From NCBI GenBank assembly GCA_964019425.1, contig OZ025804.1:806001-870000 (forward strand): a DNA stretch of 64,000 bases, in the 5' to 3' direction. Below, in pieces: positions 1 through 29,790 of this stretch. Position numbers and translations under genes: made by a program. Below the pieces are notes generated by a model. That model was not told the origin of the DNA. It made no database searches and saw only the letters and a program-made list of their open reading frames with translations. Each line of letters opens with the position of its first letter. Within the stretch, counting starts at the first letter, position 1. This DNA comes from Flectonema sp. DT1601. Taxonomy: Eukaryota.

Positions 1-2
1 TT

Positions 3-6456: not shown

Positions 6457-6496
<40 letters not shown>

Positions 6497-6965
6497 ATTT
6501 CTACGTGTAAATTTTTATATGTGACCTGACCACTATGGAAAAAAAAAAGAAAAGCTTGGGCGGCAGGTTACATAAGTTCATTGTACGAACCGAAATAGTT
6601 CATCGCAAAAAAAGAAAAGAAAAGAAAGAAAAAATGAGCTAGTAGTGTTCATGACTCTAACAAAGAGTAACCTTGTTGGCATATTTCTCTTAATGTGTGT
6701 TCTGCGAAATTGAGATTTTTTTGCCTTGTTTTTTTTTTTTTTTTGGTGTTATTGCGAAGTGCATTTCCCGTTTTTTTTTTTTTTGTTATAGTTATCTTTT
6801 TTGTATAACCTTAGTTCTTTTAAGTAATGACCAATTAAATGACGTTCAAAACAGAATGTATTAGGAGACTTTATTGATTGGTTGGTGAAGCAGCTTAGTA
6901 ATGTAATTGGTTTTATTTTTTATCATCTTTGTGTTATTTCAGCTTACCAAGTCACCTAACAAACA

Positions 6966-7446
6966 ATGGGAAAGGTTCGTACAAAGACCGTTAAGAAGGC
7001 TGCTCGTCTCATCGTTGAGAAGTACTACACTAAGTTGACTCGTGACTTCCATACCAACAAGAAGGTTATCGTTGAAGTTAGTATGATCCCATCAAAGAGA
7101 TTGAGGAACAAGATCAGTGGATTCACTACCCACTTGATGAAGAGAATCGCACGTGGACCAGTTCGTGGAATCTCTTTGAAGCTTCAGGAGGAAGAGCGTG
7201 AGAGAAGAATGGACTTCGTTCCAGAGGTTTGTTTTTTTAAAATAATGTTTCAGAACCAAGTCTTCTCATGTTGATATCATTACAAAATATTGTGAAGTTC
7301 TTCTCAATTCAAACAAAACACACAAACAGGTCTCTGTTGTCGACCAGACCATCGCTGACGGTATCGAAGTCGATGACGTCGTCTTCCAGATGTTGAAGGA
7401 CATGAACATGGGAGACCTCAACAACTTGAAGAAGGTCAGAGCCTAA
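6966..7446 (+). CDS. RPS17: 40S ribosomal protein S17 (eS17), copy 1; exons 6966-7226, 7330-7446
   Basis: [14 protein letters not shown]...[20 protein letters not shown]...ACAG intron 7227-7329 restores C-terminus VSVVDQ...KVRA*. Confidence 0.96.
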
Positions 7447-7808
7447 AATTCACATCCAATGTTTTTTAATTGAGTACCCTATTCTGGTTAGAAACTAAGG
7501 CAAGGAATCAAAATAAAGGAATTACAAAAGGCGCTATTTTATGCAATCCTAAGTGTAGTCAAATCAGTATCGCGATGGTTTCCTTCGTGTAGACTTGGAA
7601 GGGCAATCCTTACAACACATCTTTGATTGAATAATTATTATTATTACTAAACAGGTAGTCTCTCATGGATATGTGACATTTAAGTTTTCAAATGTAAGTA
7701 GGGGCAGGTTGCGGGTGATTCAACTTTCCTTTTCACAAATGGAGTGTTAAAAAGAATGATTGATTATTATTATTATTATTATCTCCGCTTAATAGCACCT
7801 AACAAACA

Positions 7809-8690
7809 ATGGGAAAGGTTCGTACAAAGACCGTTAAGAAGGCTGCTCGTCTCATCGTTGAGAAGTACTACACTAAGTTGACTCGTGACTTCCATACCAA
7901 CAAGAAGGTTATCGTTGAAGTTAGTATGATCCCATCAAAGAGATTGAGGAACAAGATCAGTGGATTCACTACCCACTTGATGAAGAGAATCGCACGTGGA
8001 CCAGTTCGTGGAATCTCTTTGAAGCTTCAGGAGGAAGAGCGTGAGAGAAGAATGGACTTCGTTCCAGAGGTTTGTTTTTTAATTATTTTTAATTAGATGA
8101 CGAGGCGCTGGTTCGGCAAACCTATGTCAACCCTTGTTTCCTCTGCTTTTGGTATCATTTGTTAATTTGTTTTGTGAAACCTAATTTGAGAAGCGATGTG
8201 CTGGTTTGCACAGCACGTCGAGTTCATCGTTCCTTGTCCTTCCGCGATGTCCGGTCTCTTGACGGCCTCGGGTGGCGTGTCGGTCCTTGCTCGCAGAGTT
8301 CCCTTGTACATCTTTTTCCCAGTTCAGGTCGAAACACTTCTTGAAGTCCGTGCGTTGTGGTCACTTCACCGAGGTCAATCCCTTCGGTAACCGTACTGCC
8401 CGTCGTGTGCCCATTTCTCTTGCCATTCCGTTACGTCCTTCTCTATACGTACACAAGCCCCATAGCCTGTACAGTGCGGATGCTACCGTTGTCTATTGCA
8501 TCATGTTGATTGTGTTGTGTCTCCATGAGAGAATAAAAACTTTCATAACTTATTAACCTTACAATTCAAACAGGTCTCTGTTGTCGACCAGACCATCGCT
8601 GACGGTATCGAAGTCGATGACGTCGTCTTCCAGATGTTGAAGGACATGAACATGGGAGACCTCAACAACTTGAAGAAGGTCAGAGCCTAA
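7809..8690 (+). CDS. RPS17: 40S ribosomal protein S17, copy 2; exons 7809-8069, 8574-8690
   Basis: Coding sequence appears identical to copy 1; intron at the same position but a different 504-nt sequence. Confidence 0.95.
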
Positions 8691-9076
8691 AATTCAAAGT
8701 GCTGACAGAGATGTTCCGCTCAGACAGTAGACAGCTGGTGTTGTGAAGGATCTGCTTTCAGTCCGATACCGTGCGGTGGTTGAATGAGAAAGTTCACTTC
8801 ATTCAATTTCGGTATCCTGTTTACGTCTTGGAAAAGAGAAAGAAAAACATTACGCCCGTCATGAATTACTTCAGAGAGGAATCCCTGTCACTTAACAACT
8901 TTACTCTACTTACAAACAGCTCTTTACTTTTATTATGTTGTTTAGAGAGATTAATAATCCTTAAGATACTAAAGGAAACATGTCATATCGTCTGAATGGT
9001 CTTTATCATCGTCTTGATGGTTTTCTGATGTGACAGATTTATTTTTTTCACAGCTACTTTAGACACCTAACAAACA

Positions 9077-9557
9077 ATGGGAAAGGTTCGTACAAAGACC
9101 GTTAAGAAGGCTGCTCGTCTCATCGTTGAGAAGTACTACACTAAGTTGACTCGTGACTTCCATACCAACAAGAAGGTTATCGTTGAAGTTAGTATGATCC
9201 CATCAAAGAGATTGAGGAACAAGATCAGTGGATTCACTACCCACTTGATGAAGAGAATCGCACGTGGACCAGTTCGTGGAATCTCTTTGAAGCTTCAGGA
9301 GGAAGAGCGTGAGAGAAGAATGGACTTCGTTCCAGAGGTTTGTTTTTTTAAAATAATGTTTCAGAACCAAGTCTTCTCATGTTGATATCATTACAAAATA
9401 TTGTGAAGTTCTTCTCAATTCAAACAAAACACACAAACAGGTCTCTGTTGTCGACCAGACCATCGCTGACGGTATCGAAGTCGATGACGTCGTCTTCCAG
9501 ATGTTGAAGGACATGAACATGGGAGACCTCAACAACTTGAAGAAGGTCAGAGCCTAA
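9077..9557 (+). CDS. RPS17: 40S ribosomal protein S17, copy 3; exons 9077-9337, 9441-9557
   Basis: Exons and intron appear identical to copy 1. Confidence 0.96.
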
Positions 9558-9874: not shown

Positions 9875-12800
9875 ATGACTTCCTGGTCGGGGGTATTTCC
9901 CCATGAAATGCCAACCCGTCTACCAGAGCTTTATAACAGCAATAGGGGGTATAATGCTGTTCAATCAGTCAGTCCGAGTGTCGATATTGATGAAATGATT
10001 AGAATGATGAATCGAGAGGGAATCGAACTATGTGGAGCTAAGATGCTATCGGAAGCGGAAAATGTCTTGCTAAAAGCGTCGGAATTAGCAAAAGAAGTTA
10101 AAGATAAGCAACAACGACTAACTTTGATAAGCATAACTAATAACAATATAGGATACGTAATGAAGCTGAAGGGGTCATTGGATGCTGCAGCAGGCTATGT
10201 TGAATCTGCTTTGAAAATTGAATACCAATTAAATAAACCTTCAGCGTCAACGACCCTCAATCTAACTGCTGTTTTAAATGCTAAAGGTCTTTATAATAAG
10301 GCAAGAGACTTAGCTAAATTAACACTAGATCTACTCAATGAAGAGGAAGCCAATGGATCACCTGCATCAACTGAGTTGTGGGTCGCGGCATGGCATAACA
10401 TAGCAGTAGCACAGTTGCATGCGACTACTGGAGTTTTGAGTGCTGAAGTCGTGTGGAATCAGTTCGCGACAGGTCAGAAGATTGCTCTTAAAGGACTCGG
10501 TAAGAATCACCCTCTCACTAAGGCCATAACAGAATCATATAAATCAGCAAAAGCAAGTTGGTTGCGTACAAAACTTAATAAAGGAAAGCGACGAGAGGTA
10601 CCACAACAATCTAAAAACATCCCTCACAGATCCCCATCACTTCCTCGTAAGAAAAAGCTTGGCAACAGACCAATGTTCCCTTCAACAGTTCATTCACTAA
10701 ATCCTGAACCACCATCACGTCATAAAAATAATAAATCTCGTGCACCAAATCGACACCAACAACAGTCTCTTCAGAGTAGTTTAAATCCAACAGAAGCACT
10801 GCTAGAATACAGTGGCATTGATCCTTACAGCGGTATGCATGGTGGATGGGGTGCTGATGTTTCGGAAGCTTGGGTTCCTTCAACAAAAAAGAAATCTCCT
10901 GCTCCGCCAACTGTACCGCCGCCAGTGAAATCGCAGAGGAATGCGACTGTGAATGCAAAACCTCAACCGATTCAAAGACCGAAGAAGAATGAAATGAATG
11001 ATCATTCTGAGTTAGTTCAATTGAGAAAGAAGATTGAACACTTAGACACTCAACCACTACCTCCTTTGAGTGCACCTGTTGCTCAGGATATTGAAGCTCC
11101 TCAAGCTCCAAATGTACCTCGGCAAGCAGTGGCTCCAGAACCTGTTAACTTTACTGGTTTTGAAGACTGCAGTGGTATAGTTACTGTTCCTTCTTCATTG
11201 AATTGTGAATTAAGAAATGATGACTCTGCTTTGAGATTACTTGAAGAAGCTTCTCCATATGAAGGTACTCTCGGAGGTCTTTGGTTGTTAAAACAAGTCT
11301 GTGCCATGGACGAAGAAGAACCAGATTGTTCTTATATCGACTTGTTGATGGCTTCTCCGTCACATAGTCAAAACCGTCACAGTGATGAAGACATCGAAAA
11401 TGATGGTTTCCCTCGAACTACACAACAGCTCCTAAATTATTTACCTGACAGCAGTGAACATAGCGCTCTTAGATTTCTCGTTGACTGTGAAACAAATGAG
11501 GCGAATCAAATTCCTCGACGAAGACCAAATCAACTAAATAGCGTTATGTATTTATTAAACGCTGCTATGCTTGATGATGAGGACTATAACGGTCTGGCAA
11601 TGCTTACGAATTCTATAAGTGAAGTTGATTGTGGCATTCAATACTCTTCGTTCTTTAAGGATACTCAAAGTTCTAATACAGCCCAGTTGTTAGATATCCC
11701 TGGTCACAAGCTTGAGTATGTTACCTTTTTGTTTATTTTATTGAGGAGGGAGAATTCATTTTTTCCTTTCCCCCTTATTCACACCTCGTTCTGACTACTA
11801 TTTACAGAGTCACCGCAACTAGGCAAGGGAGTCGGTGCAGTCATCCTGACAAATCCCTAGTCAATGTGGTGTAGATTTCTTGTTTTGCCTCGCCTGAGTT
11901 GCTCTGTGAGTTGTTTTGTGGAAATATTGTTTAGAGTAAAGGTTCTGATCGAAGCCATGTTTGCTTTTTCCGACCCCATCTTAGCGGCAATCATGGTCAA
12001 TACGGTACCGAGATCTGAGTTGGCTTTCTAAACTTAGGCAAGTGAGTGAGTGTGTTGATTGTTACTTCTTGACAGACATCACCGCAACTAGGCAAGGGAG
12101 TCGGTGCAGTCATCCTGACAAATCCCTAGTCAATGTAGTGTAGATTTCTTGTTTTGCCTCAACTCGATAACTCGAACTGCTGTCATCTGCTGTTGCTGTC
12201 GCTCTCTCAGTGTTGTCTGTTTTTATTTCAGTGCCTTTAATATTTCATGATGATACAGAAATTACCAATAGATCTCGTTCGTATGAAAATATTTTTATTG
12301 ATTTCAAGTAATTTCGGCCTTCAAGCTGATCTTTGTGTTGCCATGTTCAGGAACACACTCTGTGAGGTTTACTGTGGAGAACATCTTTATTGATCACTAC
12401 AACTAGGCAAGGGAGTCGGTGCAGTCATCCTGACAAATCCCTAGTCAATGTGGTGTAGATTTCTTGTTTTGCCTCGCCTGAGTTGCTCTGTGAGTTGTTT
12501 TGTGGAAATATTGTTTAGAGTAAAGGTTCTGATCGAAGCCATGTTTGCTTTTTCCGACCCCATCTTAGCGGCAATCATGGTCAATACGGTACCGAGATCT
12601 GAGTTGGCTTTCTAAACTTAGGCAAGTGAGTGAGTGTGTTGATTGTTACTTCTTGACAGACATCACCGCAACTAGGCAAGGGAGTCGGTGCAGTCATCCT
12701 GACAAATCCCTAGTCAATGTGGTGTAGATTTCTTGTTTTGCCTCAACTCGATAACTCGAACTGCTGTCGTCTGCTGTTGCTGTCGCTCTCTCAGTGTTGT

Positions 12801-14478
12801 CTGTTTTTATTTCAGTGCCTTTAATATTTCATGATGATACAGAAATTACCAATAGATCTCGTTCGTATGAAAATATTTTTATTGATTTCAAGTAATTTCG
12901 GCCTTCAAGCTGATCTTTGTGTTGCCATGTTCAGGAACACACTCTGTGAGGTTCACTGTGGAGAACATCTTTATTGATCACTACAACTAGGCAAGGGAGT
13001 CGGTGCAGTCATCCTGACAAATCCCTAGTCAATGTGGTGTAGATTTCTTGTTTTGCCTCAACTCGATAACTCGAACTGCTGTCGTCTGCTGTTGCTGTCG
13101 CTCTCTCGGTGTTGTCTGTTTTTATTTCAGTGCCTTTAATATTTCATGATGATACAGAAATTACCAATAGATCTCGTTCGTATGAAAATATTTTTATTGA
13201 TTTCAAGTAATTTCGGCCTTCAAGCTGATCTTTGTGTTGCCATGTTCAGGAACACACTCTGTGAGGTTTACTGTGGAGAACATCTTTATTGATCACTACA
13301 ACTAGGCAAGGGAGTCGGTGCAGTCATCCTGACAAATCCCTAGTCAATGTGGTGTAGATTTCTTTTCGTGCCTCTCTGTATTTGAGGAAGAGAGTCACTA
13401 ACTCTGAAGTTCACTGTGGAGAACGTCTTTATTGATCACTACAACTAGGCAAGGGAGTCGGTGCAGTCATCCTGGCAAATCCCTAGTCAATGTGGTGTAG
13501 ATTTCTTGTTTTGCCTGAGTTGCTCTGTGAGTTGTTTTGTGGAAATATTGTTTGGAGTAAGGGTTCTGATCGAAGCCATGTTTGCTTTTTCCGACCCCAT
13601 CTTAGCGGCAATCATGGTCAATACGGTACCGAGATCTGAGTTGGCTTTCTAAACTTAGGCAAGTGAGTGAGTGTGTTGATTGTTACTTCTTGACAGACAT
13701 CACCGCAACTAGGCAAGGGAGTCGGTGCAGTCATCCTGACAAATCCCTAGTCAATGTGGTGTAGATTTCTTGTTTTGCCTCAACTCGATAACTCGAACTG
13801 CTGTCGTCTGCTGTTGCTGTCGCTCTCTCAGTGTCGTCTGTTTTTATTTCAGTGCCTTTAATATTTCATGATGATACAGAAATTACCAATAGATCTCGTT
13901 CGTATGAAAATATTTTTATTGATTTCAAGTAATTTCGGCCTTCAAGCTGATCTTTGTGTTGCCATGTTCAGGAACACACTCTGTGAGGTTTACTGTGGAG
14001 AACATCTTTATTGATCACTACAACTAGGCAAGGGAGTCGGTGCAGTCATCCTGACAAATCCCTAGTCAAATTAGTTTAGATTGGCATATTGCTCCCTGAT
14101 TCCGTGTACCAGAGCCTCGGTCTTTCCGGAACCCATTGCTGCCCACTTTTTGATATCTCTAGATGCAGATGGGTCGGACCTTCTGAGTTGCTACTTCGTC
14201 TTGTGCTGGAGGTACTGCTCCCCCTACTGGCCCTTGCTGAGTCGTAGTAGACCTCTTCTTCAGACCCTCTAATTCCTTCATGATACTTTGTATTACGGCT
14301 GTCTGTTGTTGCTGATCAACCTGCTCCGTCCGACGATCTCTTTTCCTTGAAATATTTACTTGATCGTATTGGGCTTTGAACTGCTTTCTTCGTTCTATGT
14401 GTTTATAACTTCAAATTAACGAAAAACTAAAACAGGGCTCTTCACTTAGTTTGCATGTCTTCAATACTTGAACCGTAA
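9875..14478 (+). CDS. TPR-containing protein; proposed exons 9875-11715 and 14436-14478 (intron hosts snoRNA array 1)
   Basis: TPR-like helices at N-terminus (ITNNNIGYVMKLKGSLDAAAGYVESAL). GTATGT donor at 11716; A-rich acceptor AACTAAAACAG ending 14435 gives in-frame ...KLEALHLVCMSSILEP*. An alternative acceptor at 11807 is possible. Confidence 0.6.
11811..11878 (+). ncRNA. Single-hairpin box AGA (H/ACA-like) RNA H1, representative copy
   Basis: Basal stem CACCGCA (or CACTACA)/TGTGGTG, internal loop, upper stem GGGA..GTC/GAC..TCCC, then T-AGA-TTT at the 3' end; about 68 nt. Confidence 0.72.
11941..12016 (+). ncRNA. Single-hairpin box AGA snoRNA H2, predicted pseudouridine guide for LSU peptidyl-transferase loop
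   Basis: Stem GGTTCTG/CGGTACC then G-AGA-TCT. Pocket strands ATCGAAG and TCAA are complementary to rRNA UUGA-(UC)-CUUCGAU; upper stem CCATG/CATGG. Confidence 0.85.
12242..12334 (+). ncRNA. Double-guide box C/D snoRNA, representative copy
   Basis: C box ATGATGA 12247-12253, D' ATGA preceded by ATCTCGTTCGT (antisense to SSU ACGAACGAGA), D box CTGA 12326-12329 preceded by TTCGGCCTTCAAG (antisense to LSU UUGAAGGCCGAA). Confidence 0.88.
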
Positions 14479-15475
14479 TCTCTGTTACTCAAGTGAAACT
14501 TTTGTTAGTAATGATTCGGTTTGCTTATTATGGTGCGGCAGTCTGATTTCTTCAAGACATTTATTATTTGTTTCATTCCTTTCTTAGCTCTTTGCTACCG
14601 CAATTGCGCTGGGAAAGTAAAAGTTTTGTGTTCCTCATTTCAGTGGATTAGTTCTACTGGTGTTGGATGGTTTTTGTTTTGTTGATCATTTTGTTTATCT
14701 GTTTGGTGTGGTCAAGAATCTATTAACACACTTCACCAAATCAACTAGTCTTTGAATTGTGTCCATCATTGTGACTGTATTGTATGTCTGTAGTCTACTG
14801 TTAGTCATCTTTGGTTGGTTTCTTTATTTTATTGTTTTGCGAACATTACTTTTTTGTTTTTAAAAACCCCCTTGAGAAGGTTTCAACAATTTGCTGAATT
14901 ATTTTGACATCCTTCTCAAGAATCAATCTAATTGTTGTTAACAGAATATGACTTTGAGAGTATAAATAGACCTTCGCATCTTAGGCACTGCCGTGACTTC
15001 AGATCTCGCTCTCTTATGGTTATTACACAACTGTTATTACCATATCTTGCTTTTAATTGGAGCTAGCCCGTTTCTCATACATTCGTTTTGCTTTTTATTT
15101 TTTATTTTTTATTTTTTTTATATTATTATTTTTTGTTTCTTATTGACCTGGTTTCTTGTTGAGGATGCGATGCCGTATCTATTTCAGTTTCTTAGAGAGG
15201 TACTTTATTCTTGTTCTTAACACTGTTTTTTAGTTTTACGGTAACAATGACCATTTGAATGAAAAGTCTCTTGACCCGTTGATTTGATGACTATCTGGCC
15301 TCTACTGCCTGTGGGCTAAATTGCTTCGAAGGCTGCATTCTCTTCCTCGGCGACATGGAAGCGTTCCAACTGCACCAGCTGATTAGAATACTCGGTATTG
15401 ATTTAGATTGTGATTTAAGTTATCTGTTATTGTAGTTTACTCATTCAGGTACACAATAATAATAAAAATAAAAAT

Positions 15476-16939
15476 ATGGAGCTTGGCAAGGTAGTGTTTT
15501 TAATAATAGTAAATGTTTCCTTGTTAGTATGCTGGACAACATTCTCAAATGCTGGTTGCGTCACAGTAGTGGTTAAGAGAAATGCAAATGAAGCATTACT
15601 TCTAAAGACTCTGACTCAACAAAAGGATCCTGTGGTCCACTACTCCATACCTCAGGCAACAGTAATTAGAAAAGATAGTTCTGGTCAGGAAGTAGTGTTC
15701 TACAAGTATCAAGAAAAGCAATGTCTCGGAGGTACTGATCTGGACCCCGTCGATTCTCTGGAAGAAGCGTTTGAGATGTGTGCGAAGAAGAAAGTCTGCC
15801 AATCGATTAGTTGTCATAACATCACCTCTTGTAGGATCACATCTCCGTCATGTATTTTACAGACATCAGAGAAGGATAAGTATTACGCTTATGTTATTAT
15901 TGCTAGAACTCCTAATAGGCTTCACTTGTATGAGAAACTTCTTCAAGACCTTCCTCCTACTGAGGTCTTGAAGAACCAAACTGGTCGTCGTTTAGCATCT
16001 GGTGAAAAACACGTGAAGAACATAACGTGGAATCCTCAAAGCAGTGTTTGGCAGAATGGAAACTTTCAGCGGAATTATTCGGAACTTCCTTACGTTGAAG
16101 TGACGAGATTGGATCACTTCACAATGGGACCACTTGTTAGCGTAGACCCGATTCATAAAATTATCTTTTTCAGAATGCCGAAGGTTCAGTCCTCAAATAT
16201 TTACAGATTATACGACAGACTTGTTGGTCACACGGACATTATTAATGATGAAAATGGTCATATTTGGATGCATGAACGGTTCAGAGAGAATGATCCCCAC
16301 CGTGAGCGCATATCATTCAAAGATTTAGACAAGGATATGTGTAATCGTATTATGAATGACCCTTCTTATAGAAAAGTTGTGTTTTTCAGAGATCCTGTTG
16401 ATCGTGTTGTCTCTTGCTACCTCGATAAGTTCAAGCGTCGTCATTATTCGACCTTCTTTGGTCAAGAAGAGGGCACGACGACCTTCAGTGAGCTTATGAG
16501 CTACATTGATACAGATGGTCCTCCACCATACGGAGTTGGCCCTGGAGTGAATTATCACTATCAAGCTCAGGTACTTACTTCGAATTTGTTCAAATTTCTC
16601 CCTCTCTTCGACTTCATCGGTTGGGGGAATAATGCTCACACGAAACTGATGTTAGAGAAGTATGGTCTGTGGGATGACTTTGGTAAGAAGACTTGGCCTC
16701 ATGGCTTTATGAGATCGGGAGACAATCACTCCACTGGATCTAAAGATAAGAAAGCAACGTACCTTAACGATTCGACAATTAAAATAGCAAAACATGCTTA
16801 CGATATTGATTATCATTTCTTTCGTCACATCGGACTTGAGAAAGGAGGTCCCCCTGTTGATGGCAGTCGTTTGGTTCCATTCTTCTCTCATTGTAATAAT
16901 AAGAATAAAGTCTGTTGGCCTGCTTATCCTGACGCTTAA
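15476..16939 (+). CDS. Golgi-type carbohydrate sulfotransferase (Sulfotransfer_2 family)
   Basis: N-terminal TM anchor; 5'-PSB motif MPKVQSSN; 3'-PB motif FRDPVDRVVSCY. Confidence 0.85.
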   Translation: MELGKVVFLIIVNVSLLVCWTTFSNAGCVTVVVKRNANEALLLKTLTQQKDPVVHYSIPQATVIRKDSSGQEVVFYKYQEKQCLGGTDLDPVDSLEEAFEMCAKKKVCQSISCHNITSCRITSPSCILQTSEKDKYYAYVIIARTPNRLHLYEKLLQDLPPTEVLKNQTGRRLASGEKHVKNITWNPQSSVWQNGNFQRNYSELPYVEVTRLDHFTMGPLVSVDPIHKIIFFRMPKVQSSNIYRLYDRLVGHTDIINDENGHIWMHERFRENDPHRERISFKDLDKDMCNRIMNDPSYRKVVFFRDPVDRVVSCYLDKFKRRHYSTFFGQEEGTTTFSELMSYIDTDGPPPYGVGPGVNYHYQAQVLTSNLFKFLPLFDFIGWGNNAHTKLMLEKYGLWDDFGKKTWPHGFMRSGDNHSTGSKDKKATYLNDSTIKIAKHAYDIDYHFFRHIGLEKGGPPVDGSRLVPFFSHCNNKNKVCWPAYPDA

Positions 16940-17617
16940 AATAATGTGTTAACGCATCCGACTCACTCTACGTAAAGAGTCGACCTGCAAGTGGGAGCTT
17001 TCTAGTTACACCCCCTAGAGTTCTCCACTTGTGTACTCGGCTTCGTAAGTAGGAGACGGTGTTCCCTGTCGAGTGATGTCAGGGCGTTGACCCCCCTGGA
17101 CATAGTGCTGTGTAATATCAAATTACTTCATGCGAATTATATCATTTTGTTAACAACTTGAATCGCATTCCCCTGCTGCTTACTTTTTTAATTCCCCTCT
17201 CCTCCTTTTTGTTTTTCTCCCAATTATTTACTCATAGTAGTGTTATTGGCTGCGTGAGTGACAGATCACAAGGTGAAGCTTTCTTTTTTTGGGAGCCTCC
17301 GTTAGTATTCTATCACGCATACAGCGCCAACAATACTCGTTTCTTGTTCTCTTGTTCCTCTCTTATTAATATTTTTAATTAGTTTGTAAGACTTAAGTAA
17401 CCAAAAATAATAATTACACTGTTAATGTGTATTTGGAAAAATAATAATAACAGTAATTTCTTTTTTTTTTTTTTTTTTTTTTTTCAGTGACTTATCACAT
17501 AGAATTCTATATACACGATTGGTTAGTGAGAAAAACCTCTAATAATATTATTATAATTTTTTTATGATGGTAATGAATAAAAATATCTTTCTTAAACAGG
17601 TCTATTTAGCTGGTTCA

Positions 17618-18448
17618 ATGTCAGTCCTCAGAAAGGTAAAATGTAACTCTCGTGAAGTTGAGAGATTCTTTGATACGCTCATGAAGTATAAAACAGAACC
17701 AGATGAGAGCAGCACAAGAATGATATCAATTGTGAAAAATAAATGCCCAGAACTCTTCGTTAGGGAAACTTCAGAGACTAAACGGAATATCAGGATATGT
17801 GACGTTGGTTGCGGAGATGGATCAGTTTTAAGAGATATACAAACTACGTCTCCACACGACCTCCAATTGGAGGGGGTCGATATAAGTGGTAGAGCAATAG
17901 ACTACTGTAGAGAACACAGCAATGGTGATTTAGTATTTCACCATGCGGATATTTGTCCATTTGAACTTCATGATCAAGAAACCCTCTTTGATAAAGACAC
18001 TGTAGAACATTGCAAACCTGAACTAAACCCTGAAGCAATACTCCATTGGGGAACATTTGATTATGTTTTATCACTCGACACGATGTTCTTAATGCCTGAT
18101 GTGTATGAAGCAATGAGTCAACATTGTCGCTTATTATCTGAAGGAGGAAAACTTATAATTTGCTTATCAGTCTTTACCGAAAGTAATTCAACCCTAGAAA
18201 ACCTCACTAATCACAAAGGGGTTTCTGAGAAGTTCATTCAAGAATACCTAAGCATACATACTTGGAAATCAATTATAAGAGGAGCTGGTCTTCATCTTGA
18301 TGATGTCGCTATTAAAGTCATATCAGGTAATGAATATCTCACCTTTATTACTAGCCTGAAACCCGTAACACCTATACCAACACCATCCGACACACTCGGG
18401 AAGAACTACCCGAGTGCAAGGCCTCTCAATTCGATACTGACTGCGTAG
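17618..18448 (+). CDS. Class I SAM-dependent methyltransferase
   Basis: Motif I ICDVGCGDG, GVDIS, FDYVLS, RLLSEGGKL; start uncertain (17564 or 17618). Confidence 0.85.
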   Translation: MSVLRKVKCNSREVERFFDTLMKYKTEPDESSTRMISIVKNKCPELFVRETSETKRNIRICDVGCGDGSVLRDIQTTSPHDLQLEGVDISGRAIDYCREHSNGDLVFHHADICPFELHDQETLFDKDTVEHCKPELNPEAILHWGTFDYVLSLDTMFLMPDVYEAMSQHCRLLSEGGKLIICLSVFTESNSTLENLTNHKGVSEKFIQEYLSIHTWKSIIRGAGLHLDDVAIKVISGNEYLTFITSLKPVTPIPTPSDTLGKNYPSARPLNSILTA

Positions 18449-18652
18449 ATAGTACTGGAGGGCAGTTTTTGAAGTGTTAGTGATTCAAGGTGTCTACAAA
18501 AAAAAAATATTTAATTTTTTTTTTTCTCTCTCCTCTCTCTTCGACAGCACACATAACTCACAATGAGATGTAAAAATTTCTTTTTTTGAAAAAAAAATAA
18601 TTTTAAGTTAATGAAATAACTTTGGATTTAATTTATTTTTTTCAGGTAGGAG

Positions 18653-21477
18653 ATGCGGCTGCGAGGCCGAAGATGGTCGCGCACCTGGCTTCGGTCACTT
18701 GGTCGACAGGTAGGACTTCGGCTGTCATGGGCGACATGCTTTGTGATACTGTGGATGTTCGTATCAAAGGCACAAGCTAGTACATCTGATGAGATCGTTG
18801 AAGCACTACCACCAACTGACATGACAAGAAAGATAACAAAGTTCTCAGGAGGTAAACTATTAATAGAATACTATCCAAAAGATCACGCGGTCTGCAATAG
18901 CTGGATACTCGTACCTGCTGAAAATATCTGGCCAATGGGGTTACGTATTGTACTCTACTTCACTGGATTGGTATACGTGTTTCTAGGTGTCGCAATTATC
19001 AGTGATATATTCATGTCTGGAATAGAGAAAATTACATCTGCTAAGGAAAGAGTAAAAGTTGATTCTGAGACTGGAGAGAAAAAAGTAGTTGTGGTGGAAG
19101 TATGGAATGAAACTGTAGCGAACTTAACGTTGTTAGCTCTTGGTTCTTCAGCTCCAGAAATACTACTGTCAGTTATTGAAACACTAAGCACTCTGGATAG
19201 CACTCCTGGTGAGTTGGGCCCATCGACTATTGTTGGTTCAGCAGCCTTTAACTTACTTTGTATATCTGCTGTTTGCATGTATGTTTCTGAAGAAGTTAAA
19301 AAAGTAAAGGAATTCGGAGTATTTGTTATCACAACGGTTGCCTCATTCTTTGCTTACGTATGGATGATAATAGTTTTATTGATTACTTCAGAATGTGAAG
19401 TCACAATAGCGGAGGGGATCGCAACCTTATTGTTCTTTCCTTCTTTAGTTCTCATTGCGTGGTTACAAGACAAAAGTTGGTTCTGTTTTAGATCAACTGT
19501 AGAACAACGAATCCTTTCAGTTGATGTTCCCGGTGCGAGCAGTCAACAACAAGTCCAAGAAATTTGGAAAAAAATAAAGAAAGACAAACAGTCTTCTCAT
19601 TTGAACGATGCTGAAGCAGAAGCAAAACTTGCAATCATGGCAGACAAGGAAATCAAATCTGGTAAGTTTGGTAGAGCCGTCTATAGAATGAACGCAGTTA
19701 GACAAGCTGTAACGAAAGCAAAGAGATTATTACCATCCAGGAAAGATCATCAGGAGCCAAGCCAATCCATTGAGAATACTGGACCACAAACAACAGCTTG
19801 GGGGAACAGCGCCATGCCAAACAGTAAAACAGCTCCTCGAAAAGACAACAGTCTCATGGCTGAATTATCTCCTGTGACTAGCAGTAATGTTAAAGGAATC
19901 TTACAATGGTCTTCTTCATCTTATACTGTTTTAGAGAATGAAGGACACGTTAGACTGACAATTAAAAGATACTCTGGTTCTGAAGACACTGTCACTGTAA
20001 AATACATGACTCAAGACGGTACTGCTGTATCAGGTCTTAGATACGATTCATGTTCTGGTCATATCGTTTTAGAGAAAGGAGAAGTAGTTCAACACGTTTT
20101 GATTCCAATAATCGATGATAAACAGTACCAAGATAATGAGATATTTTATGTGATCTTACAAGAGGCTGGAGGTGGTGCAGAGTTAGGACCACTCGTCAAA
20201 GCAGCTGTCACAATCATTGACGATGATCAGCCTGGCGACATCGAATTCTCAGAAATAGCACATAAACTACAATCATCAACTATTGATAATAACAAATTAA
20301 GAATAACAGTTCCAGAATCAAGAGGTTTCGTTGCACTTGATATTTCTCGTAAGTCTGGTTCAGATGGTAAGGTCTCAGTTGTACTTAAAACTGCAAGCAA
20401 TTCAAGTGCAATACCAGGAACTGACTACACTCCATTGGAAACAGTACTCGATTTTGATCACACGGAGACGTCAAAATTCATTAAAATAGAACTCAACGAC
20501 CAAATGGAATATCAAAAACTAAAAACATTTACGGTCGAGTTACAACAACCTCTTGGGGGTTGCTCAATTGGTGCAGTTTCTGAAGCAATCATCACCATCG
20601 TTGAAGACGAAGCCGTGAAGTTACTCATTGATAAGGTGGTCACAATGAACGATGAAAAAAATGGAAAAATTAGAGAAAAAATCGAAACAAAATCCTGGGG
20701 ACAACAAATCAAAGACGCTATGACTTTGGAAGAAGAAGACGAAGAACTGACTTTTTCTGACTACGCAATGCACTTTTTGACTATGCTGTGGAAGATAATA
20801 TTTTCAACAGTTCCTCCAACGTGCTATGCTGGTGGATGGGCTACGTTTGCAGTGGCATTAATGTACATCGCGTTAGTTACTGCGTTGGTTGCTGAGTTGG
20901 CATCACTATTTGGTTGTGTTGTTGGTCTTGAAGACTCAGTTACTGCAATCACCTTCGTAGCTCTCGGCACATCTCTCCCAGACACTTTCGCTTCGAAAAC
21001 TGCTATCGAAGAAGAGGAGTTCGCCGATGCAGCAATTGGTAACGTCATGGGATCTAACTCTGTAAACGTGTTCCTCGGCCTTGGTCTCCCTTGGACCATT
21101 GCCTCGATATACAAAGAAGTTAAGGGAGAAACTTATTTCTATCCTTCTGCAGGGTTAGTCTTTTCTGTTATTATCTTCCTCATCTGTGCTGTTTGCGGTG
21201 TTTGTGTCCTTCTTATTAATAAAAGACTCTACGGAGGTGAATTGGGAGGTCCAATGCGCCGGCCATTCGCAGCCGTCCTGTTCTGCCTGTGGGTATGAAT
21301 TTATTTTATTAGGAGTGGGTTTCAAAATAAAAATATCGACAACAACAACAACAACCACAGCTCGTGTATATTATTTTGGTATCCATCAATTCTGGAAGCG
21401 CTGATTTATCTTCGGCCTTTGCGGAAGACAAATGTTCAACACCAAAGACTGCACTCACCACCACAGCTCCACTGTAG
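18653..21477 (+). CDS. NCX: Na+/Ca2+ exchanger (NCX/SLC8) with two Calx-beta domains; exons 18653-21292, 21361-21477
   Basis: Alpha-1 LLALGSSAPE and alpha-2 ALGTSLPDTFAS...GSNSVNVFLG repeats; Calx-beta (VTIIDDD). The intron 21293-21360 joins CLW to LVYIILVS. Confidence 0.93.
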
Positions 21478-21575
21478 TACGAGATGTGTAGATGTATGTT
21501 TTCATTTATTTTAATAAAAGAAAACATTTCACTGACTCCATTCCAATCATTTTTTGTTTTTTCTTTTAAAGCTAA

Positions 21576-24500
21576 GGTTCTGATCGAAGCTATGTTTGCT
21601 TTTTCCGACCCCATCTTAGCGGCAATCATGGTCAATACAGTACCGAGATTTGAGTTGACTTTCTAAACTTAGGCAAGTGAGTGAGTGTGTTGATTGTTAC
21701 TTCTTGACAGACATCACCGCAACTAGGCAAGGGAGTCGGTGCAGTCATCCTGACAAATCCCTAGTCAATGTGGTGTAGATTTCTTGTTTTGCCTCAACTC
21801 GATAACTCGAACTGCTGTCATCTGCTGTTGCTGTCGCTCTCTCGGTGTTGTCTGTTTTTATTTCAGTGCCTTTAATATTTCATGATGATACAGAAATTAC
21901 CAATAGATCTCGTTCGTATGAAAATATTTTTATTGATTTCAAGTAATTTCGGCCTTCAAGCTGATCTTTGTGTTGCCATGTTCAGGAACACACTCTGTGA
22001 GGTTTACTGTGGAGAACATCTTTATTGATCACTACAACTAGGCAAGGGAGTCGGTGCAGTCATCCTGACAAATCCCTAGTCAATGTGGTGTAGATTTCTT
22101 GTTTTGCCTCGCCTGAGTTGCTCTGTGAGTTGTTTTGTGGAAATATTGTTTGGAGTAAAGGTTCTGATCGAAGCCATGTTTGCTTATTCCGACCCCATCT
22201 TAGCGGCAATCATGGTCAATACAGTACCGAGATTTGAGTTGACTTTCTAAACTTAGGCAAGTGAGTGAGTGTGTTGATTGTTACTTCTTGACAGACATCA
22301 CCGCAACTAGGCAAGGGAGTCGGTGCAGTCATCCTGACAAATCCCTAGTCAATGTGGTGTAGATTTCTTGTTTTGCCTCAACTCGATAACTCGAACTGCT
22401 GTCGTCTGCTGTTGCTGTCGCTCTCTCAGTGTTGTCTGTTTTTATTTCAGTGCCTTTAATATTTCATGATGATACAGAAATTACCAATAGATCTCGTTCG
22501 TATGAAAATATTTTTATTGATTTCAAGTAATTTCGGCCTTCAAGCTGATCTTTGTGTTGCCATGTTCAGGAACACACTCTGTGAGGTTTACTGTGGAGAA
22601 CATCTTTATTGATCACTACAACTAGGCAAGGGAGTCGGTGCAGTCATCCTGACAAATCCCTAGTCAATGTGGTGTAGATTTCTTTTCGTGCCTCTCTGTA
22701 TTTGAGGAAGAGAGTCACTAACTCTGAAGTTCACTGTGGAGAACGTCTTTATTGATCACTACAACTAGGCAAGGGAGTCGGTGCAGTCATCCTGGCAAAT
22801 CCCTAGTCAATGTGGTGTAGATTTCTTTTCGTGCCTCTCTGTATTTGAGGAAGAGAGTCACTTACTCTGAAGTTCACTGTGGAGAACGTCTTTATTGATC
22901 ACTACAACTAGGCAAGGGAGTCGGTGCAGTCATCCTGGCAAATCCCTAGTCAATGTGGTGTAGATTTCTTGTTTTGCCTCAACTTGATAACTCGAACTGC
23001 TGTCGTCTGCTGTTGCTGTCGCTCTCTCGGTGTTGTCTGTTTTTATTTCAGTGCCTTTAATATTTCATGATGATACAGAAATTACCAATAGATCTCGTTC
23101 GTATGAAAATATTTTTATTGATTTCAAGTAATTTCGGCCTTCAAGCTGATCTTTGTGTTGCCATGTTCAGGAACACACTCTGTGAGGTTTACTGTGGAGA
23201 ACATCTTTATTGATCACTACAACTAGGCAAGGGAGTCGGTGCAGTCATCCTGGCAAATCCCTAGTCAATGTGGTGTAGATTTCTTGTTTTGCCTCAACTC
23301 GATAACTCGAACTGCTGTCATCTGCTGTTGCTGTCGCTCTCTCGGTGTTGTCTGTTTTTATTTCAGTGCCTTTAATATTTCATGATGATACAGAAATTAC
23401 CAATAGATCTCGTTCGTATGAAAATATTTTTATTGATTTCAAGTAATTTCGGCCTTCAAGCTGATCTTTGTGTTGCCATGTTCAGGAACACACTCTGTGA
23501 GGTTTACTGTGGAGAACATCTTTATTGATCACTACAACTAGGCAAGGGAGTCGGTGCAGTCATCCTGGCAAATCCCTAGTCAATGTGGTGTAGATTTCTT
23601 GTTTTGCCTCAACTCGATAACTCGAACTGCTGTCATCTGCTGTTGCTGTCGCTCTCTCGGTGTTGTCTGTTTTTATTTCAGTGCCTTTAATATTTCATGA
23701 TGATACAGAAATTACCAATAGATCTCGTTCGTATGAAAATATTTTTATTGATTTCAAGTAATTTCGGCCTTCAAGCTGATCTTTGTGTTGCCATGTTCAG
23801 GAACACACTCTGTGAGGTTTACTGTGGAGAACATCTTTATTGATCACTACAACTAGGCAAGGGAGTCGGTGCAGTCATCCTGGCAAATCCCTAGTCAATG
23901 TGGTGTAGATTTCTTGTTTTGCCTCAACTCGATAACTCGAACTGCTGTCATCTGCTGTTGCTGTCGCTCTCTCGGTGTTGTCTGTTTTTATTTCAGTGCC
24001 TTTAATATTTCATGATGATACAGAAATTACCAATAGATCTCGTTCGTATGAAAATATTTTTATTGATTTCAAGTAATTTCGGCCTTCAAGCTGATCTTTG
24101 TGTTGCCATGTTCAGGAACACACTCTGTGAGGTTTACTGTGGAGAACATCTTTATTGATCACTACAACTAGGCAAGGGAGTCGGTGCAGTCATCCTGGCA
24201 AATCCCTAGTCAATGTGGTGTAGATTTCTTTTCGTGCCTCTCTGTATTTGAGGAAGAGTCACTTACTCTGAAGTTTGCTGTGGAGAACGTCTTTATTGAT
24301 CACTACAACTAGGCAAGGGAGTCGGTGCAGTCATCCTGACAAATCCCTAGTCAATGTGGTGTAGATTTCTTTTCGTGCCTCTCTGTATTTGAGGAAGAGA
24401 GTCACTTACTCTGAAGTTCACTGTGGAGAACGTCATTATTGATCACTACAACTAGGCAAGGGAGTCGGTGCAGTCATCCTGACAAATCCCTAGTCAATGT

Positions 24501-26523
24501 GGTGTAGATTTCTTGTTTTGCCTCAACTTGATAACTCGAACTGCTGTCGTCTGCTGTTGCTGTCGCTCTCTCAGTGTTGTCTGTTTTTATTTCAGTGCCT
24601 TTAATATTTCATGATGATACAGAAATTACCAATAGATCTCGTTCGTATGAAAATCTTTTTATTGATTTCAAGTAATTTCGGCCTTCAAGCTGATCTTTGT
24701 GTTGCCATGTTCAGGAACACACTCTGTGAGGTTTACTGTGGAGAACATCTTTATTGATCACTACAACTAGGCAAGGGAGTCGGTGCAGTCATCCTGACAA
24801 ATCCCTAGTCAATGTGGTGTAGATTTCTTTTCGTGCCTCTCTGTATTTGAGGAAGAGAGTCACTAACTCTGAAGTTCACTGTGGAGAACGTCTTTATTGA
24901 TCACTACAACTAGGCAAGGGAGTCGGTGCAGTCATCCTGGCAAATCCCTAGTCAATGTGGTGTAGATTTCTTTTCGTGCCTCTCTGTATTTGAGGAAGAG
25001 AGTCACTTACTCTGAAGTTCATTGTGGAGAACGTCTTTATTGATCACTACAACTAGGCAAGGGAGTCGGTGCAGTCATCCTGGCAAATCCCTAGTCAATG
25101 TGGTGTAGATTTCTTTTCGTGCCTCTCTGTATTTGAGGAAGAGAGTCACTAACTCTGAAGTTCACTGTGGAGAACGTCTTTATTGATCACTACAACTAGG
25201 CAAGGGAGTCGGTGCAGTCATCCTGGCAAATCCCTAGTCAATGTGGTGTAGATTTCTTTTCGTGCCTCTCTGTATTTGAGGAAGAGAGTCACTAACTCTG
25301 AAGTTCACTGTGGAGAACGTCTTTATTGATCACTACAACTAGGCAAGGGAGTCGGTGCAGTCATCCTGGCAAATCCCTAGTCAATGTGGTGTAGATTTCT
25401 TTTCGTGCCTCTCTGTATTTGAGGAAGAGAGTCACTTACTCTGAAGTTCATTGTGGAGAACGTCTTTATTGATCACTACAACTAGGCAAGGGAGTCGGTG
25501 CAGTCATCCTGACAAATCCCTAGTCAATGTGGTGTAGATTTCTTGTTTTGCCTCGCCTGAGTTGCTCTGTGAGTTGTTTTGTGGAAATATTATTTGGAGT
25601 AAAGGTTCTGATCGAAGCCATGTTTGCTTATTCCGACCCCATCTTAGCGGCAATCATGGTCAATACGGTACCGAGATCTGAGTTGACTTTCTAAACTTAG
25701 GCAAGTGAGTGAGTGTGTTGATTGTTACTTCTTGACAGACATCACCGCAACTAGGCAAGGGAGTCGGTGCAGTCATCCTGACAAATCCCTAGTCAATGTG
25801 GTGTAGATTTCTTGTTTTGCCTCAACTCGATAACTCGAACTGCTGTCGTCTGCTGTTGCTGTCGCTCTCTCAGTGTTGTCTGTTTTTATTTCAGTGCCTT
25901 TAATATTTCATGATGATACAGAAATTACCAATAGATCTCGTTCGTATGAAAATCTTTTTATTGATTTCAAGTAATTTCGGCCTTCAAGCTGATCTTTGTG
26001 TTGCTATGTTCAGGAACACACTCTGTGAGGTTTACTGTGGAGATCGTCTTTATTGATCACTACAACTAGGCAAGGGAGTCGGTGCAGTCATCCTGACAAA
26101 TCCCTAGTCAATGTGGTGTAGATTTCTTGTTTTGCCTGAGTTGCTCTGTGAGTTGTCTTGTGGAAATATTGTTTGGAGTAAGGGTTCTGATCGAAGCTAT
26201 GTTTGCTTTTTCCGACCCCATCTTAGCGGCAATCATGGTCAATACGGTACCGAGAATTGAGTTGACTTTCTAAACTTAGGCAAGTGAGTGAGTGTGTTGA
26301 TTGTTACTTCTTGACAGACATCACCGCAACTAGGCAAGGGAGTCGGTGCAGTCATCCTGGCAAATCCCTAGTCAATGTGGTGTAGATTACCCGTGTTAGT
26401 TTCAGCCCTAAAAAAATCTTTGTTAGTTTTTTTAAATTAAGACTTAAGGTTCTGATCGAAGCCATGTTTGCCTTTTCCGACCCCATCTTAGCGGCAATCA
26501 TGGTCAATACAGTACCGAGATAA
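21576..26523 (+). ncRNA. snoRNA cluster/array 2: 21 copies H1, 5 copies H2, 8 copies box C/D RNA
   Basis: Same modules as array 1 in a different order. H2 starts 21576, 22160, 25604, 26183, 26448; C boxes at 21882, 22466, 23067, 23382, 23697, 24012, 24611, 25910; H1 from 21715 to 26322. Confidence 0.85.
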
Positions 26524-27613
26524 AATTTAGTTTTCCTGGGATTAAATTCATATTTGGATGAAGAAAAGAAGTTGCTTTTTTTTCTTTTTTAGACAGAAAA
26601 AGGAGATTTGATAAATGTAATAAACAAAAAAAAACAAACAAACAAACAGACGCAGTAGTGCCAAGCTGACTTCTTCCGAAGCTGTGGTGAGGGATTTGTT
26701 GCATTCTTGCTGTACTCTACTGGAGTACTTACCCTTCCTATATTACAAGTTGTAAGGCATATATTAATTAGTTGTACAACTCGAACCACTTTTTGGTGTT
26801 TTAATTTTCTTTTTCTTTTTTTTTCCTCTCTCGCGTGCATTAAGCACACAATTCATATTCTTCCTCGCGTTTCTAATTTGCGTCATGAGATTGGGAGCAT
26901 TGGTTACCTTAGCTATAGTGAGATTTTTCTTAGAAAAGTATGTCTGGTGCGGAATGATATTATTTTTTCTGAGCTTGGCTTTACGGAAATAAAGCTGCCA
27001 TGCCACTGAAACAAATTGGAGGCAATTTTTGGCCGATTTTAAGCTGAGGATTTTGAATTACGAACTACACTTTTGCATCAACGCAATTAAAAAAAAAAAA
27101 AAAAAAAAAAATACACTTAGTTATGTCCTCCCTTTCGAAAAAGTAATTTTCCAATTAACTCATCTTGAGGGGAGGAAAGTCCTTTTTTTCCTGAAGCGAT
27201 ATTCCTTGATTTTTCCCCACCCTTTTTTTTTTTTTTAAATTTCATTTTTTTTATTTCTCTTTTTTCTCTCGCTCTCTCTCTCTATCTCTCTCTCTCTCCA
27301 CATTAATCACGTTGCTGAGCGGTTAGTAGTATTTAGGGTATAGAGTCCTGATGGTAATAAGAAACTTAAGAACGTATTCATTACACCACACACAAGGCGT
27401 GAGTACCTCTTATACAACAGTAGCCTGCAATCTTGACAGATTGGTTGGTTGTTGTTATTTTTTTTTTTCTCTTCTCTCGTTTTATCCGCTTTTTTTGTGT
27501 GAAGCTTGTTTGTATTGTTTTTTGTGGTGTTCAAAAAAAAAAAAAAAAAAAAAATAATAATAATAATAAAAATATTATAAAACTTTCATTTAAATAAGAT
27601 TTACACAACAGAG

Positions 27614-28567: not shown

Positions 28568-29790
<1,223 letters not shown>

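What the first reader, a model, noticed from the sequence alone, without database searches (positions are those of the whole stretch)
11811..26523. CRISPR-looking arrays are a shuffled, amplified polycistron of three guide snoRNAs present at two loci
Seen: a constant 68-nt unit (H1, about 30 copies) alternates with three recurring linkers of periods about 269, 315 and 143 bp. The order is irregular and differs between 11811-14069 and 21576-26523, which are separated by three unrelated genes. The 269-bp module carries AGA hairpin H2 (8 copies), the 315-bp module carries a C/D RNA (12 copies), and the 143-bp module has no recognisable extra RNA. Known: trypanosomatids and Euglena use single-hairpin AGA guides and clustered, repeated snoRNA genes. 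Inference: H1 acts as the recombination hub for unequal exchange, giving a modular system with unequal guide dosage. This is probably unannotated because it would be masked as satellite.
Basis: partly seen in the sequence, partly recalled or inferred. Interest (0 to 1): 0.88.

Follow-up and report, generated by a model that had tools for sequence, protein, structure and literature searches.

The report
Intron-hosted shuffled snoRNA arrays in diplonemid
Two repeat arrays in a marine diplonemid protist carry 50 near-identical copies of three small RNA genes whose sequences match ribosomal RNA exactly where modification guides should pair, so they are likely guide snoRNAs, and they likely sit inside introns of ordinary genes, unlike the mostly intergenic clusters of trypanosomes.

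Summary
In detail: 30 H1 copies joined by three recurring modules, with 8 H2 and 12 C/D copies, in two arrays. The host is a diplonemid. Against an environmental diplonemid-type rDNA, H1 and H2 fold as single-hairpin AGA guides. Their pockets match the LSU uridines equivalent to yeast Psi2191 and Psi2865. The C/D RNA has two guides. One matches the SSU site equivalent to human Am1383. The other gives 14 bp to an LSU site found in 5 of 5 diplonemid-type rDNAs and none of 18 others. At the array edges, identity stops at the predicted RNA ends.

New here: array 1 lies in an intron (11716-14435), supported by a transcriptome homolog's C-terminus. Array 2 probably lies in a 3'-UTR intron (splice motifs only). 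Exchange in or beside H1 is supported, but the order is not free: A is followed by B in 6 of 6 junctions. Adaptive dosage is unsupported. Expression is untested, and this organism's own rRNA was unavailable.

Verdict: a new variant of a known kind, i.e. trypanosome-type repeated snoRNA clusters in an intronic setting.

The parts
9875..11715 (+). Large coding exon of host gene 1 (uncharacterised diplonemid protein; no Pfam hit, distant homolog P0125 carries TPR families)
   Evidence: 53% identity to transcriptome protein P0122, with similarity ending at 11713
11716..14435 (+). GT-AG intron (2720 nt) holding array 1
   Evidence: donor GTATGT at 11716; the only A/C-rich CAG (14 or more of 18) inside the interval is at 14435; downstream exon matches the homolog's tail
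11811..14083 (+). Array 1: 9 H1, 3 H2, 4 C/D; order ABABBCAB
11811..11878 (+). H1 (first of 30): 68-nt single hairpin with AGA box 3 nt from the predicted 3' end; pocket predicted to target the LSU uridine equivalent to yeast Psi2191
11941..12016 (+). H2 (first of 8): 76-nt AGA hairpin; pocket predicted to target the LSU uridine equivalent to yeast Psi2865
12243..12332 (+). C/D RNA (first of 12, about 90 nt, ends inferred): C box 12247-12253, D' guide 12270-12282, D' 12283-12286, D guide 12311-12324, D box 12326-12329
13294..13436 (+). Module C example: H1 plus a spacer homologous to the 3' spacer of module B; no extra RNA found
14016..14083 (+). Edge copy of H1: AGA box in place, 3' strand of lower stem diverged and no longer matching its 5' strand; probably impaired
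14436..14478 (+). Last coding exon of host gene 1 (14 codons plus stop)
   Evidence: best of 192 AG sites against the last 20 residues of P0122, score 40 vs next 19; 0 of 5000 shuffles as high
18650..21477 (+). Na/Ca exchanger (Calx-beta) gene with a 68-nt intron at 21293-21360; probable host of array 2
21494..26649 (+). Probable 3'-UTR intron holding array 2 (motifs only)
   Evidence: GTATGT 16 nt after the stop; the next A/C-rich CAG is at 26649, 18 of 18, one of 4 top-scoring among 1022 CAG sites
21576..26523 (+). Array 2: 21 H1, 5 H2, 8 C/D; starts at the 5' end of an H2 and ends at the 3' end of an H2
26322..26523 (+). Edge H1-H2 pair: RNA bodies 66/68 and 71/76 identical to internal copies; 58-nt spacer unrelated to the internal 62-nt spacer

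Best explanation
[quoted passage not shown] SHOWN in sequence: the copies, boxes, pocket geometry (14 nt to AGA), complementarity to diplonemid-type rRNA, identity ending at RNA ends, and shared variants between arrays. STRONGLY INFERRED: H1 guides Psi at the LSU position equivalent to yeast 2191; H2 guides Psi at yeast 2865, near the peptidyl transferase centre; the C/D RNA guides 2'-O-methylation of SSU A (yeast 1326, human 1383) and LSU A (yeast 1474); array 1 is intronic. INFERRED: array 2 is in a 3'-UTR intron; RNAs are released by endo- and exonucleolytic trimming protected by Cbf5 or fibrillarin RNPs; a founding H1-H2-H1-C/D unit (A+B, 584 bp) and an H1-only unit (C) were multiplied and reshuffled by unequal exchange or gene conversion in the shared spacer-plus-H1 block, including between the two arrays. 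The 30:12:8 ratio is most likely a by-product of that turnover, not a tuned dosage.
For: Fixed-geometry pocket matches: H1 12 of 14 (2 of 1000 shuffled rRNAs and 5 of 1000 shuffled pockets as good), H2 12 of 13 (0 of 1000 and 0 of 1000), over 1332 uridines. A uniform scan of the whole window (both strands, AGA and ACA, 743 hairpin candidates) returned 29 of 30 H1, 8 of 8 H2 and one weaker A/T-rich hit. C/D guides: 13 Watson-Crick bp (3 of 300 shuffles) and 14 bp with one G-U (0 of 300), each ending at a D or D' box. D-guide site: 14 bp in 5 of 5 diplonemid-type loci that reach it, 6 bp or less in 18 of 18 others. Register check: 13 of 13 and 10 of 10 yeast modified residues fall on the right base when H1 and H2 targets are set to 2191 and 2865 (table from PMC5699541). 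The SSU site is Am1383/SNORD30 in human (PMC11550049) and Am1330/snoR32 in Arabidopsis (PMC8053127 supplement), by 57-nt offsets from neighbouring sites. Edge copies keep the RNA body and lose the spacer. Intron 1. Exchange: all four marker combinations occur between H1 nt 4-5 and nt 39, and each nt-39 allele precedes all three module types. B modules differ by 3.15 nt within arrays and 3.19 nt between them.
Against: No expression data. The rRNA tested (L047) is an unnamed environmental sequence, not this organism's, and its diplonemid label is inferred from a tree without named references. The H1 geometry was fixed after a looser scan found a different, non-significant best site (118 of 200); with six geometries allowed the right site reached only 61 of 500. 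The H1 duplex has one mismatch. Single C/D-type matches of similar score occur elsewhere in the window: the two guides rank 2nd and 3rd of 21 rows. H2 does not fold better than shuffles (z 0.23 and -0.95) and H1 only modestly (z -2.4 and -1.9). No covariation above control among paralogs. The C' box is degenerate and there is no terminal stem. One of the four marker combinations rests on one copy (26322). Array 2's intron rests on motifs only.
Confidence: 0.72

Rival explanations
1. Same three guides, but made trypanosome-style: the arrays form their own precursor, trans-spliced at a T-rich AG just upstream (11807 and 21571) and polyadenylated, so the intron location is incidental.
For: Both arrays begin 3-4 nt after an AG preceded by a T-rich stretch. 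In T. brucei snoRNA precursors are trans-spliced and polyadenylated (PMC6562600; PMC3273796). D. papillatum mRNAs carry a spliced leader (PMC10161547).
Against: Array 1 is still flanked by coding exons of one gene, so the host intron must be spliced out in at least some transcripts. Splicing to 11808 gives a poor match to the homolog's tail (score 8 vs 40).
Confidence: 0.13
2. One reading: H1 is a free recombination hub and selection tunes the ratio of the three guides.
For: Unequal copy numbers 30:12:8; an H1-only module exists; recombinant marker combinations.
Against: A is followed by B in 6 of 6 internal junctions (P 0.014 by shuffling), and exchange also marks the spacer shared by B and C. 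A 131-bp x15 array with no clear guide also sits in a probable intron of this window, and gene-adjacent tandem repeats in introns and UTRs are described for D. papillatum (PMC10161547), so amplification may be a general trait. snoRNA levels vary widely within one T. brucei cluster.
Confidence: 0.08
3. The guides are real but the irregular order or copy number is partly an assembly artefact.
For: No reads or genome could be examined; the copies are about 99% identical.
Against: Variants occur in runs and as shared haplotypes, the 5-bp deletion form of A occurs in both arrays, and the edges have unique diverged copies.
Confidence: 0.04
4. A non-functional satellite or a CRISPR-like array.
For: A constant unit alternates with linkers; no Rfam hit.
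Against: The linkers recur instead of being unique; no Cas family among 23 ORF translations scanned with Pfam (not every ORF); four rRNA matches at rule-conforming positions; the host is a eukaryote.
Confidence: 0.03

Closest known systems
Trypanosomatid snoRNA clusters (T. brucei, L. major): mixed C/D and single-hairpin AGA RNAs
   Same: Single hairpin, AGA box, clusters mixing both classes, repeated several times and sometimes at a second site on the same chromosome (PMC2613932 passages; PMC3273796 passages).
   Different: There most loci are intergenic, a few in 3' UTRs, and precursors are trans-spliced; cis introns are nearly absent (PMC11613528). Here the arrays lie in a protein-supported intron and a probable 3'-UTR intron, and repeat as variable-order modules around one recurring gene rather than as whole-cluster repeats.
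Euglena gracilis clustered, multi-copy guide snoRNA genes
   Same: Single-hairpin Psi guides and multi-copy linked snoRNA genes (reported in PMC2613932, PMC2784804 and PMC7671301 passages).
   Different: The primary papers (Moore and Russell 2012; Moore et al. 2018) were not held, so whether Euglena has intronic clusters or variable-order arrays could not be checked.
Intronic polycistronic snoRNA clusters of plants, Chlamydomonas and Ostreococcus
   Same: Several snoRNAs in one host intron, processed from a polycistronic precursor (PMC7671301 passages).
   Different: Those lineages use the standard two-hairpin H/ACA form (recalled). I saw no report there of 16-34 near-identical genes in one intron, but did not search that exhaustively.
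Yeast snR32 (Psi2191) and snR46 (Psi2865); human SNORD30 and Arabidopsis snoR32 (SSU Am)
   Same: Same predicted target positions: functional counterparts.
   Different: No sequence match to their Rfam families. The second C/D target (yeast LSU 1474) is not listed as modified in yeast, human (passage shown) or Arabidopsis (A1484 'No').

Membership tests
Single-hairpin AGA-box (H/ACA-like) Psi-guide RNA | One hairpin with lower stem, pocket and upper stem | tested here: met
   MFE folds; 29 of 30 H1 and 8 of 8 H2 pass the geometry scan. Fold energy alone is weak for H2.
Single-hairpin AGA-box (H/ACA-like) Psi-guide RNA | AGA box 3 nt from the 3' end, 14-15 nt from the target U | tested here: met
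   AGA in all 38 copies at 14 nt; edge identity ends 2 nt after AGA. The true 3' end is not mapped.
Single-hairpin AGA-box (H/ACA-like) Psi-guide RNA | Bipartite complementarity around an unpaired U-N in rRNA | tested here: met
   12 of 14 and 12 of 13 on L047 LSU; 0-5 of 1000 controls; relative's rRNA, not the organism's own
Single-hairpin AGA-box (H/ACA-like) Psi-guide RNA | Stable RNA that depends on Cbf5; Psi at the target | not testable with these tools
   no RNA run was listed
Box C/D methylation-guide snoRNA | C (RUGAUGA) and D (CUGA) boxes, internal D' and C' | tested here: met
   C, D' and D read directly from the sequence; C' is degenerate
Box C/D methylation-guide snoRNA | 10-21 nt antisense element just upstream of D or D', target 5 nt from the box | tested here: met
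   13 and 14 bp; the D' target falls on a site methylated in human and Arabidopsis
Box C/D methylation-guide snoRNA | Terminal stem or k-turn support | tested here: inconclusive
   no terminal or flanking stem above chance
Box C/D methylation-guide snoRNA | Fibrillarin/Nop58 binding and Nm at the target | not testable with these tools
   needs RIP and RiboMeth-seq
Trypanosomatid-type snoRNA cluster | Mixed C/D and AGA genes in repeated clusters | tested here: met
Trypanosomatid-type snoRNA cluster | Mostly intergenic location | tested here: not met
   array 1 lies between two coding exons of one gene
Intronic polycistronic snoRNA cluster | Cluster on the sense strand inside a spliced intron | tested here: met
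   array 1 by protein homology; array 2 by splice motifs only
CRISPR array | Unique spacers and nearby cas genes | tested here: not met
   three recurring linkers; no Cas family in 23 ORF translations scanned

The most novel reading that the evidence does not exclude
Diplonemids combine trypanosome-type AGA guides with intron hosting, and their intronic snoRNA arrays act as copy-number-variable cassettes that spread between neighbouring host introns, so that the level of specific rRNA modifications, including a diplonemid-specific LSU methylation, is set by array make-up and host-gene splicing.
Probability: 0.15. Interest if true: 0.75.

Novelty: new variant of a known kind. Interest (0 to 1): 0.5.

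Why it matters
My searches of the held library found no description of guide snoRNAs in diplonemids, an abundant marine group and the sister of kinetoplastids. These three RNAs predict four testable rRNA modifications and show that the single-hairpin AGA form extends to this lineage. Intron hosting bears on how trypanosomes, which lost nearly all cis introns, came to use trans-spliced snoRNA precursors: intron-hosted clusters may be the older state or a diplonemid invention. In practice, repeats like these would be masked as satellite, so the motif pattern gives a way to find the rest of the diplonemid snoRNA set.

Tried and rejected
No whole genome was held, so genome-wide copy number and the organism's own rRNA are unknown. 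No RNA holder was listed among sequencing runs; this is no evidence on expression. Rfam: 0 hits at gathering over the window and 2 chance-level hits over 11700-13600. No tRNA. An rRNA pattern found nothing in viral contigs. A scan of prokaryote genomes for H1 got no answer. My first guess for the H1 target, an SSU site, was not above chance (118 of 200) and was dropped. The H2 scan used a wrong box index and is disregarded; one search stopped on an error before H2. Flanking 'processing' stems around the RNAs: none of 13 above shuffles (94-484 of 500). Covariation among H1 paralogs: not above control (367 of 500). Runs of identical modules: not above chance (10 observed, P 0.40). An extra RNA in module C or in other spacers: none found. 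More diverged H1 paralogs in the window: none below E 2. Alternative C-termini for host gene 1 (read-through, score 4; splice to 11808, score 8) lost to 14436 (score 40). A published diplonemid primer to name the rDNA group was not found. Three look-ups in earlier findings returned nothing. The 37 of 38 count for the D' site in the diplonemid-like group is circular, because that motif was part of my group label; the D-guide, H1 and H2 tests are not.
Full report
OBSERVATION. A 20-nt anchor finds 30 H1 copies, all on the + strand. A covariance model built from six of them finds the same 30 and nothing else below E 2. Between consecutive copies lie modules of 269/264 bp (A, 6 copies), 315 bp (B, 12) and 143/141 bp (C, 10). 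H2 has 8 copies and the C/D RNA 12. Orders are ABABBCAB and (A)BABCCBBBBCCBCCCCCABA. Rfam gives no hit.

ORGANISM. The window's RPS17 exon is 100% identical to a transcriptome protein that its source labels Flectonema neradi, and 90% identical to Diplonema papillatum. The second exon is 89% identical and the array's host protein 53%. The window is therefore from a related diplonemid. No genome was held.

rRNA FOR TESTING. I scanned metagenome contigs with an SSU pattern that contains none of the guide targets and got 99 loci, of about 150 estimated. By motif they fall into 38 diplonemid-like, 26 kinetoplastid-like, 19 euglenid-like and 16 other. In a tree of 65 rows (those long enough), kinetoplastid-like and euglenid-like rows each form one group. 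Of 26 diplonemid-like rows, 23 lie apart from both and 3 join the kinetoplastid side. The names are my inference; no named reference was available. L047 is one of the 23 and holds full SSU, 5.8S and LSU.

C/D RNA. It has a C box, D', a degenerate C' and a D box. The element before D' pairs with SSU over 13 Watson-Crick bp (3 of 300 shuffled guides as good). The element before D pairs with LSU over 14 bp with one G-U (0 of 300). The D site gives 14 bp in 5 of 5 diplonemid-like loci that reach it and at most 6 bp in 18 others, so this guide fits lineage-specific rRNA. By the five-nucleotide rule (recalled) the targets are SSU A1535 and LSU A1537 of L047. Counting from yeast Um1269, Gm1271, ac4C1280 and Psi1290 (PMC5699541 passages) on the sequence printed, the first is yeast 1326. 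That equals human Am1383/SNORD30 (PMC11550049 passages) and Arabidopsis Am1330/snoR32 (PMC8053127 supplement rows), assuming no indels over 57 nt. The second is yeast 1474 (3 of 3 anchors), not listed as modified in yeast, human or Arabidopsis. Against: in a window-wide scan the two guides rank 2nd and 3rd of 21 rows, so the strength lies in both being in one C/D frame. Ten of 12 copies are identical over 83 nt, and the other two differ outside the guides.

H1 AND H2. Both fold as one hairpin with an internal loop and AGA 14 nt from the base of the upper stem. A loose scan gave H2 its LSU site (9 and 16 of 200 controls) but gave H1 a non-significant SSU site (118 of 200). Requiring the pocket arms to abut the upper stem moved H1 to LSU U2261. 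With six geometries allowed this reached 61 of 500. With the one canonical geometry, chosen after those results, it reached 2 and 5 of 1000, and H2 0 and 0 of 1000. A uniform scan of both strands of the window, with thresholds I set knowing H1 and H2, passed 29 of 30 H1, 8 of 8 H2 and one weaker hit among 743 candidates. Setting the targets to yeast 2191 and 2865 puts 13 of 13 and 10 of 10 listed yeast modified residues on the right base; shifted registers reach at most 5. These are Psi2191 (snR32) and Psi2865 (snR46). The H1 pocket is fully Watson-Crick on its 3' arm in 2 of 2 diplonemid-like loci, where 12 of 12 kinetoplastid-like loci would give a G-U.

EDGES. At 26322-26523 the H1 and H2 bodies are 66/68 and 71/76 identical to internal copies, the spacer between them is unrelated, and identity stops 2 nt after each AGA. 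Array 1 starts at the predicted 5' end of H1 and array 2 at that of H2. The last H1 of array 1 keeps AGA in place with a diverged stem strand. Conserved blocks thus match predicted RNA ends, which fits selection or conversion limited to the RNAs.

LOCATION. Similarity of host gene 1 to P0122 stops at 11713, next to GTATGT at 11716. Of 192 AG sites up to 15420, the one at 14435 gives the best match to the homolog's last 20 residues (40 vs 19; 0 of 5000 shuffles). Introns in this window end in an A/C-rich tract plus CAG, as in RPS17 and the exchanger gene, and 14435 is the only such site in the interval. So array 1 is intronic. Array 2 follows GTATGT 16 nt after the exchanger's stop codon, and the next A/C-rich CAG is at 26649, just past the array: a probable 3'-UTR intron, not provable by protein. 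Both arrays also start 3-4 nt after a T-rich AG, which keeps a trans-spliced precursor open as a rival.

TURNOVER. The H1 5' variant always follows its upstream module type. All four combinations of that variant with the nt-39 SNP occur (7, 1, 11, 11), and both alleles precede A, B and C, so exchange happens in or beside H1. The spacer before H1 in B and C is homologous (0 of 300 shuffles) and so is the spacer before H2 in A (2 of 300), so C is an H1-only unit and the exchange block is wider than H1. A is followed by B in 6 of 6 internal junctions (P 0.014), while runs of the same module are not in excess (P 0.40). B modules differ no more between arrays than within them, meaning recent duplication or continuing conversion. 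Nothing here shows that dosage is selected.

LITERATURE. Repeated mixed clusters with AGA RNAs, also at a second site on a chromosome, are known in trypanosomes (PMC2613932 passages). Most are intergenic, a few in 3' UTRs, and levels vary widely within clusters (PMC3273796 passages and section 16); precursors are trans-spliced (PMC6562600 passages). Intronic clusters are known in plants and green algae (PMC7671301 passages). For diplonemids, searches (listings only) showed no snoRNA study. The D. papillatum genome paper has no 'small nucleolar' in its main text and no 'snoRNA' in the 7 supplementary files held (passages, section 7, supplement search); I did not check that its Additional file 1 on structural RNAs was among them. 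The Euglena and Chlamydomonas primary papers were not held, and most subscription journals are outside the library, so absence from print is not established. PMC4855143 supplements gave no target sequences; PMC5062969 had none of the terms; PMC2784804, PMC11613528, PMC6366073 and PMC13598402 were seen as passages only.

VERDICT. Real feature. About 0.9 that the three RNAs are guides, 0.9 that array 1 is intronic, 0.7 for array 2. It works like a trypanosomatid snoRNA cluster but does not share its usual intergenic setting. New variant of a known kind; interest 0.5.

Noticed in passing
window 60250-62216: A third tandem array (131 bp x15, 97% identical) also lies in a probable intron (donor 60193, A-rich CAG at 62325, frame continues). 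No AGA-guide geometry and no Rfam hit; its best rRNA match is 13 nt to the 5' part of 5.8S (14 of 200 shuffles as good). Either an unknown intronic RNA or a neutral repeat.
   Followed up: partly
window, many introns (e.g. ends at 7329, 21360, 33007, 43869, 52878): Introns and intron-like segments end in an A/C-rich tract plus CAG instead of a polypyrimidine tract; donors are GTATG or GTTTG.
   Followed up: partly
window 6966-9551: Three tandem copies of the RPS17 gene; the middle one has its two exons about 500 nt apart instead of about 100.
   Followed up: no
window 28678-29256: (AAC) x193 tract inside a probable intron (donor 28652, acceptor 29265) of a prefoldin-subunit gene.
   Followed up: partly
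window 39405-40458: 75-bp x14 coding repeat in a BspA-type leucine-rich-repeat ORF that also has a RINT1/TIP1 match.
   Followed up: no
window 12080-12147: One H1 copy carries a 3'-stem base that would be the Watson-Crick partner of the other 5' variant but mismatches its own; possibly a recombinant of two older compensated alleles.
   Followed up: partly
window 12281, 12865 and each C/D copy: The D' guide end plus D' box reads GTATGA, a splice-donor-like motif, 12 times inside the host introns; a possible source of cryptic splicing.
   Followed up: no
L079:2292-2619: Group I intron in the LSU of a kinetoplastid-like environmental rDNA.
   Followed up: no
window 1-6900: No ORF of 100 aa or more on either strand.
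   Followed up: no
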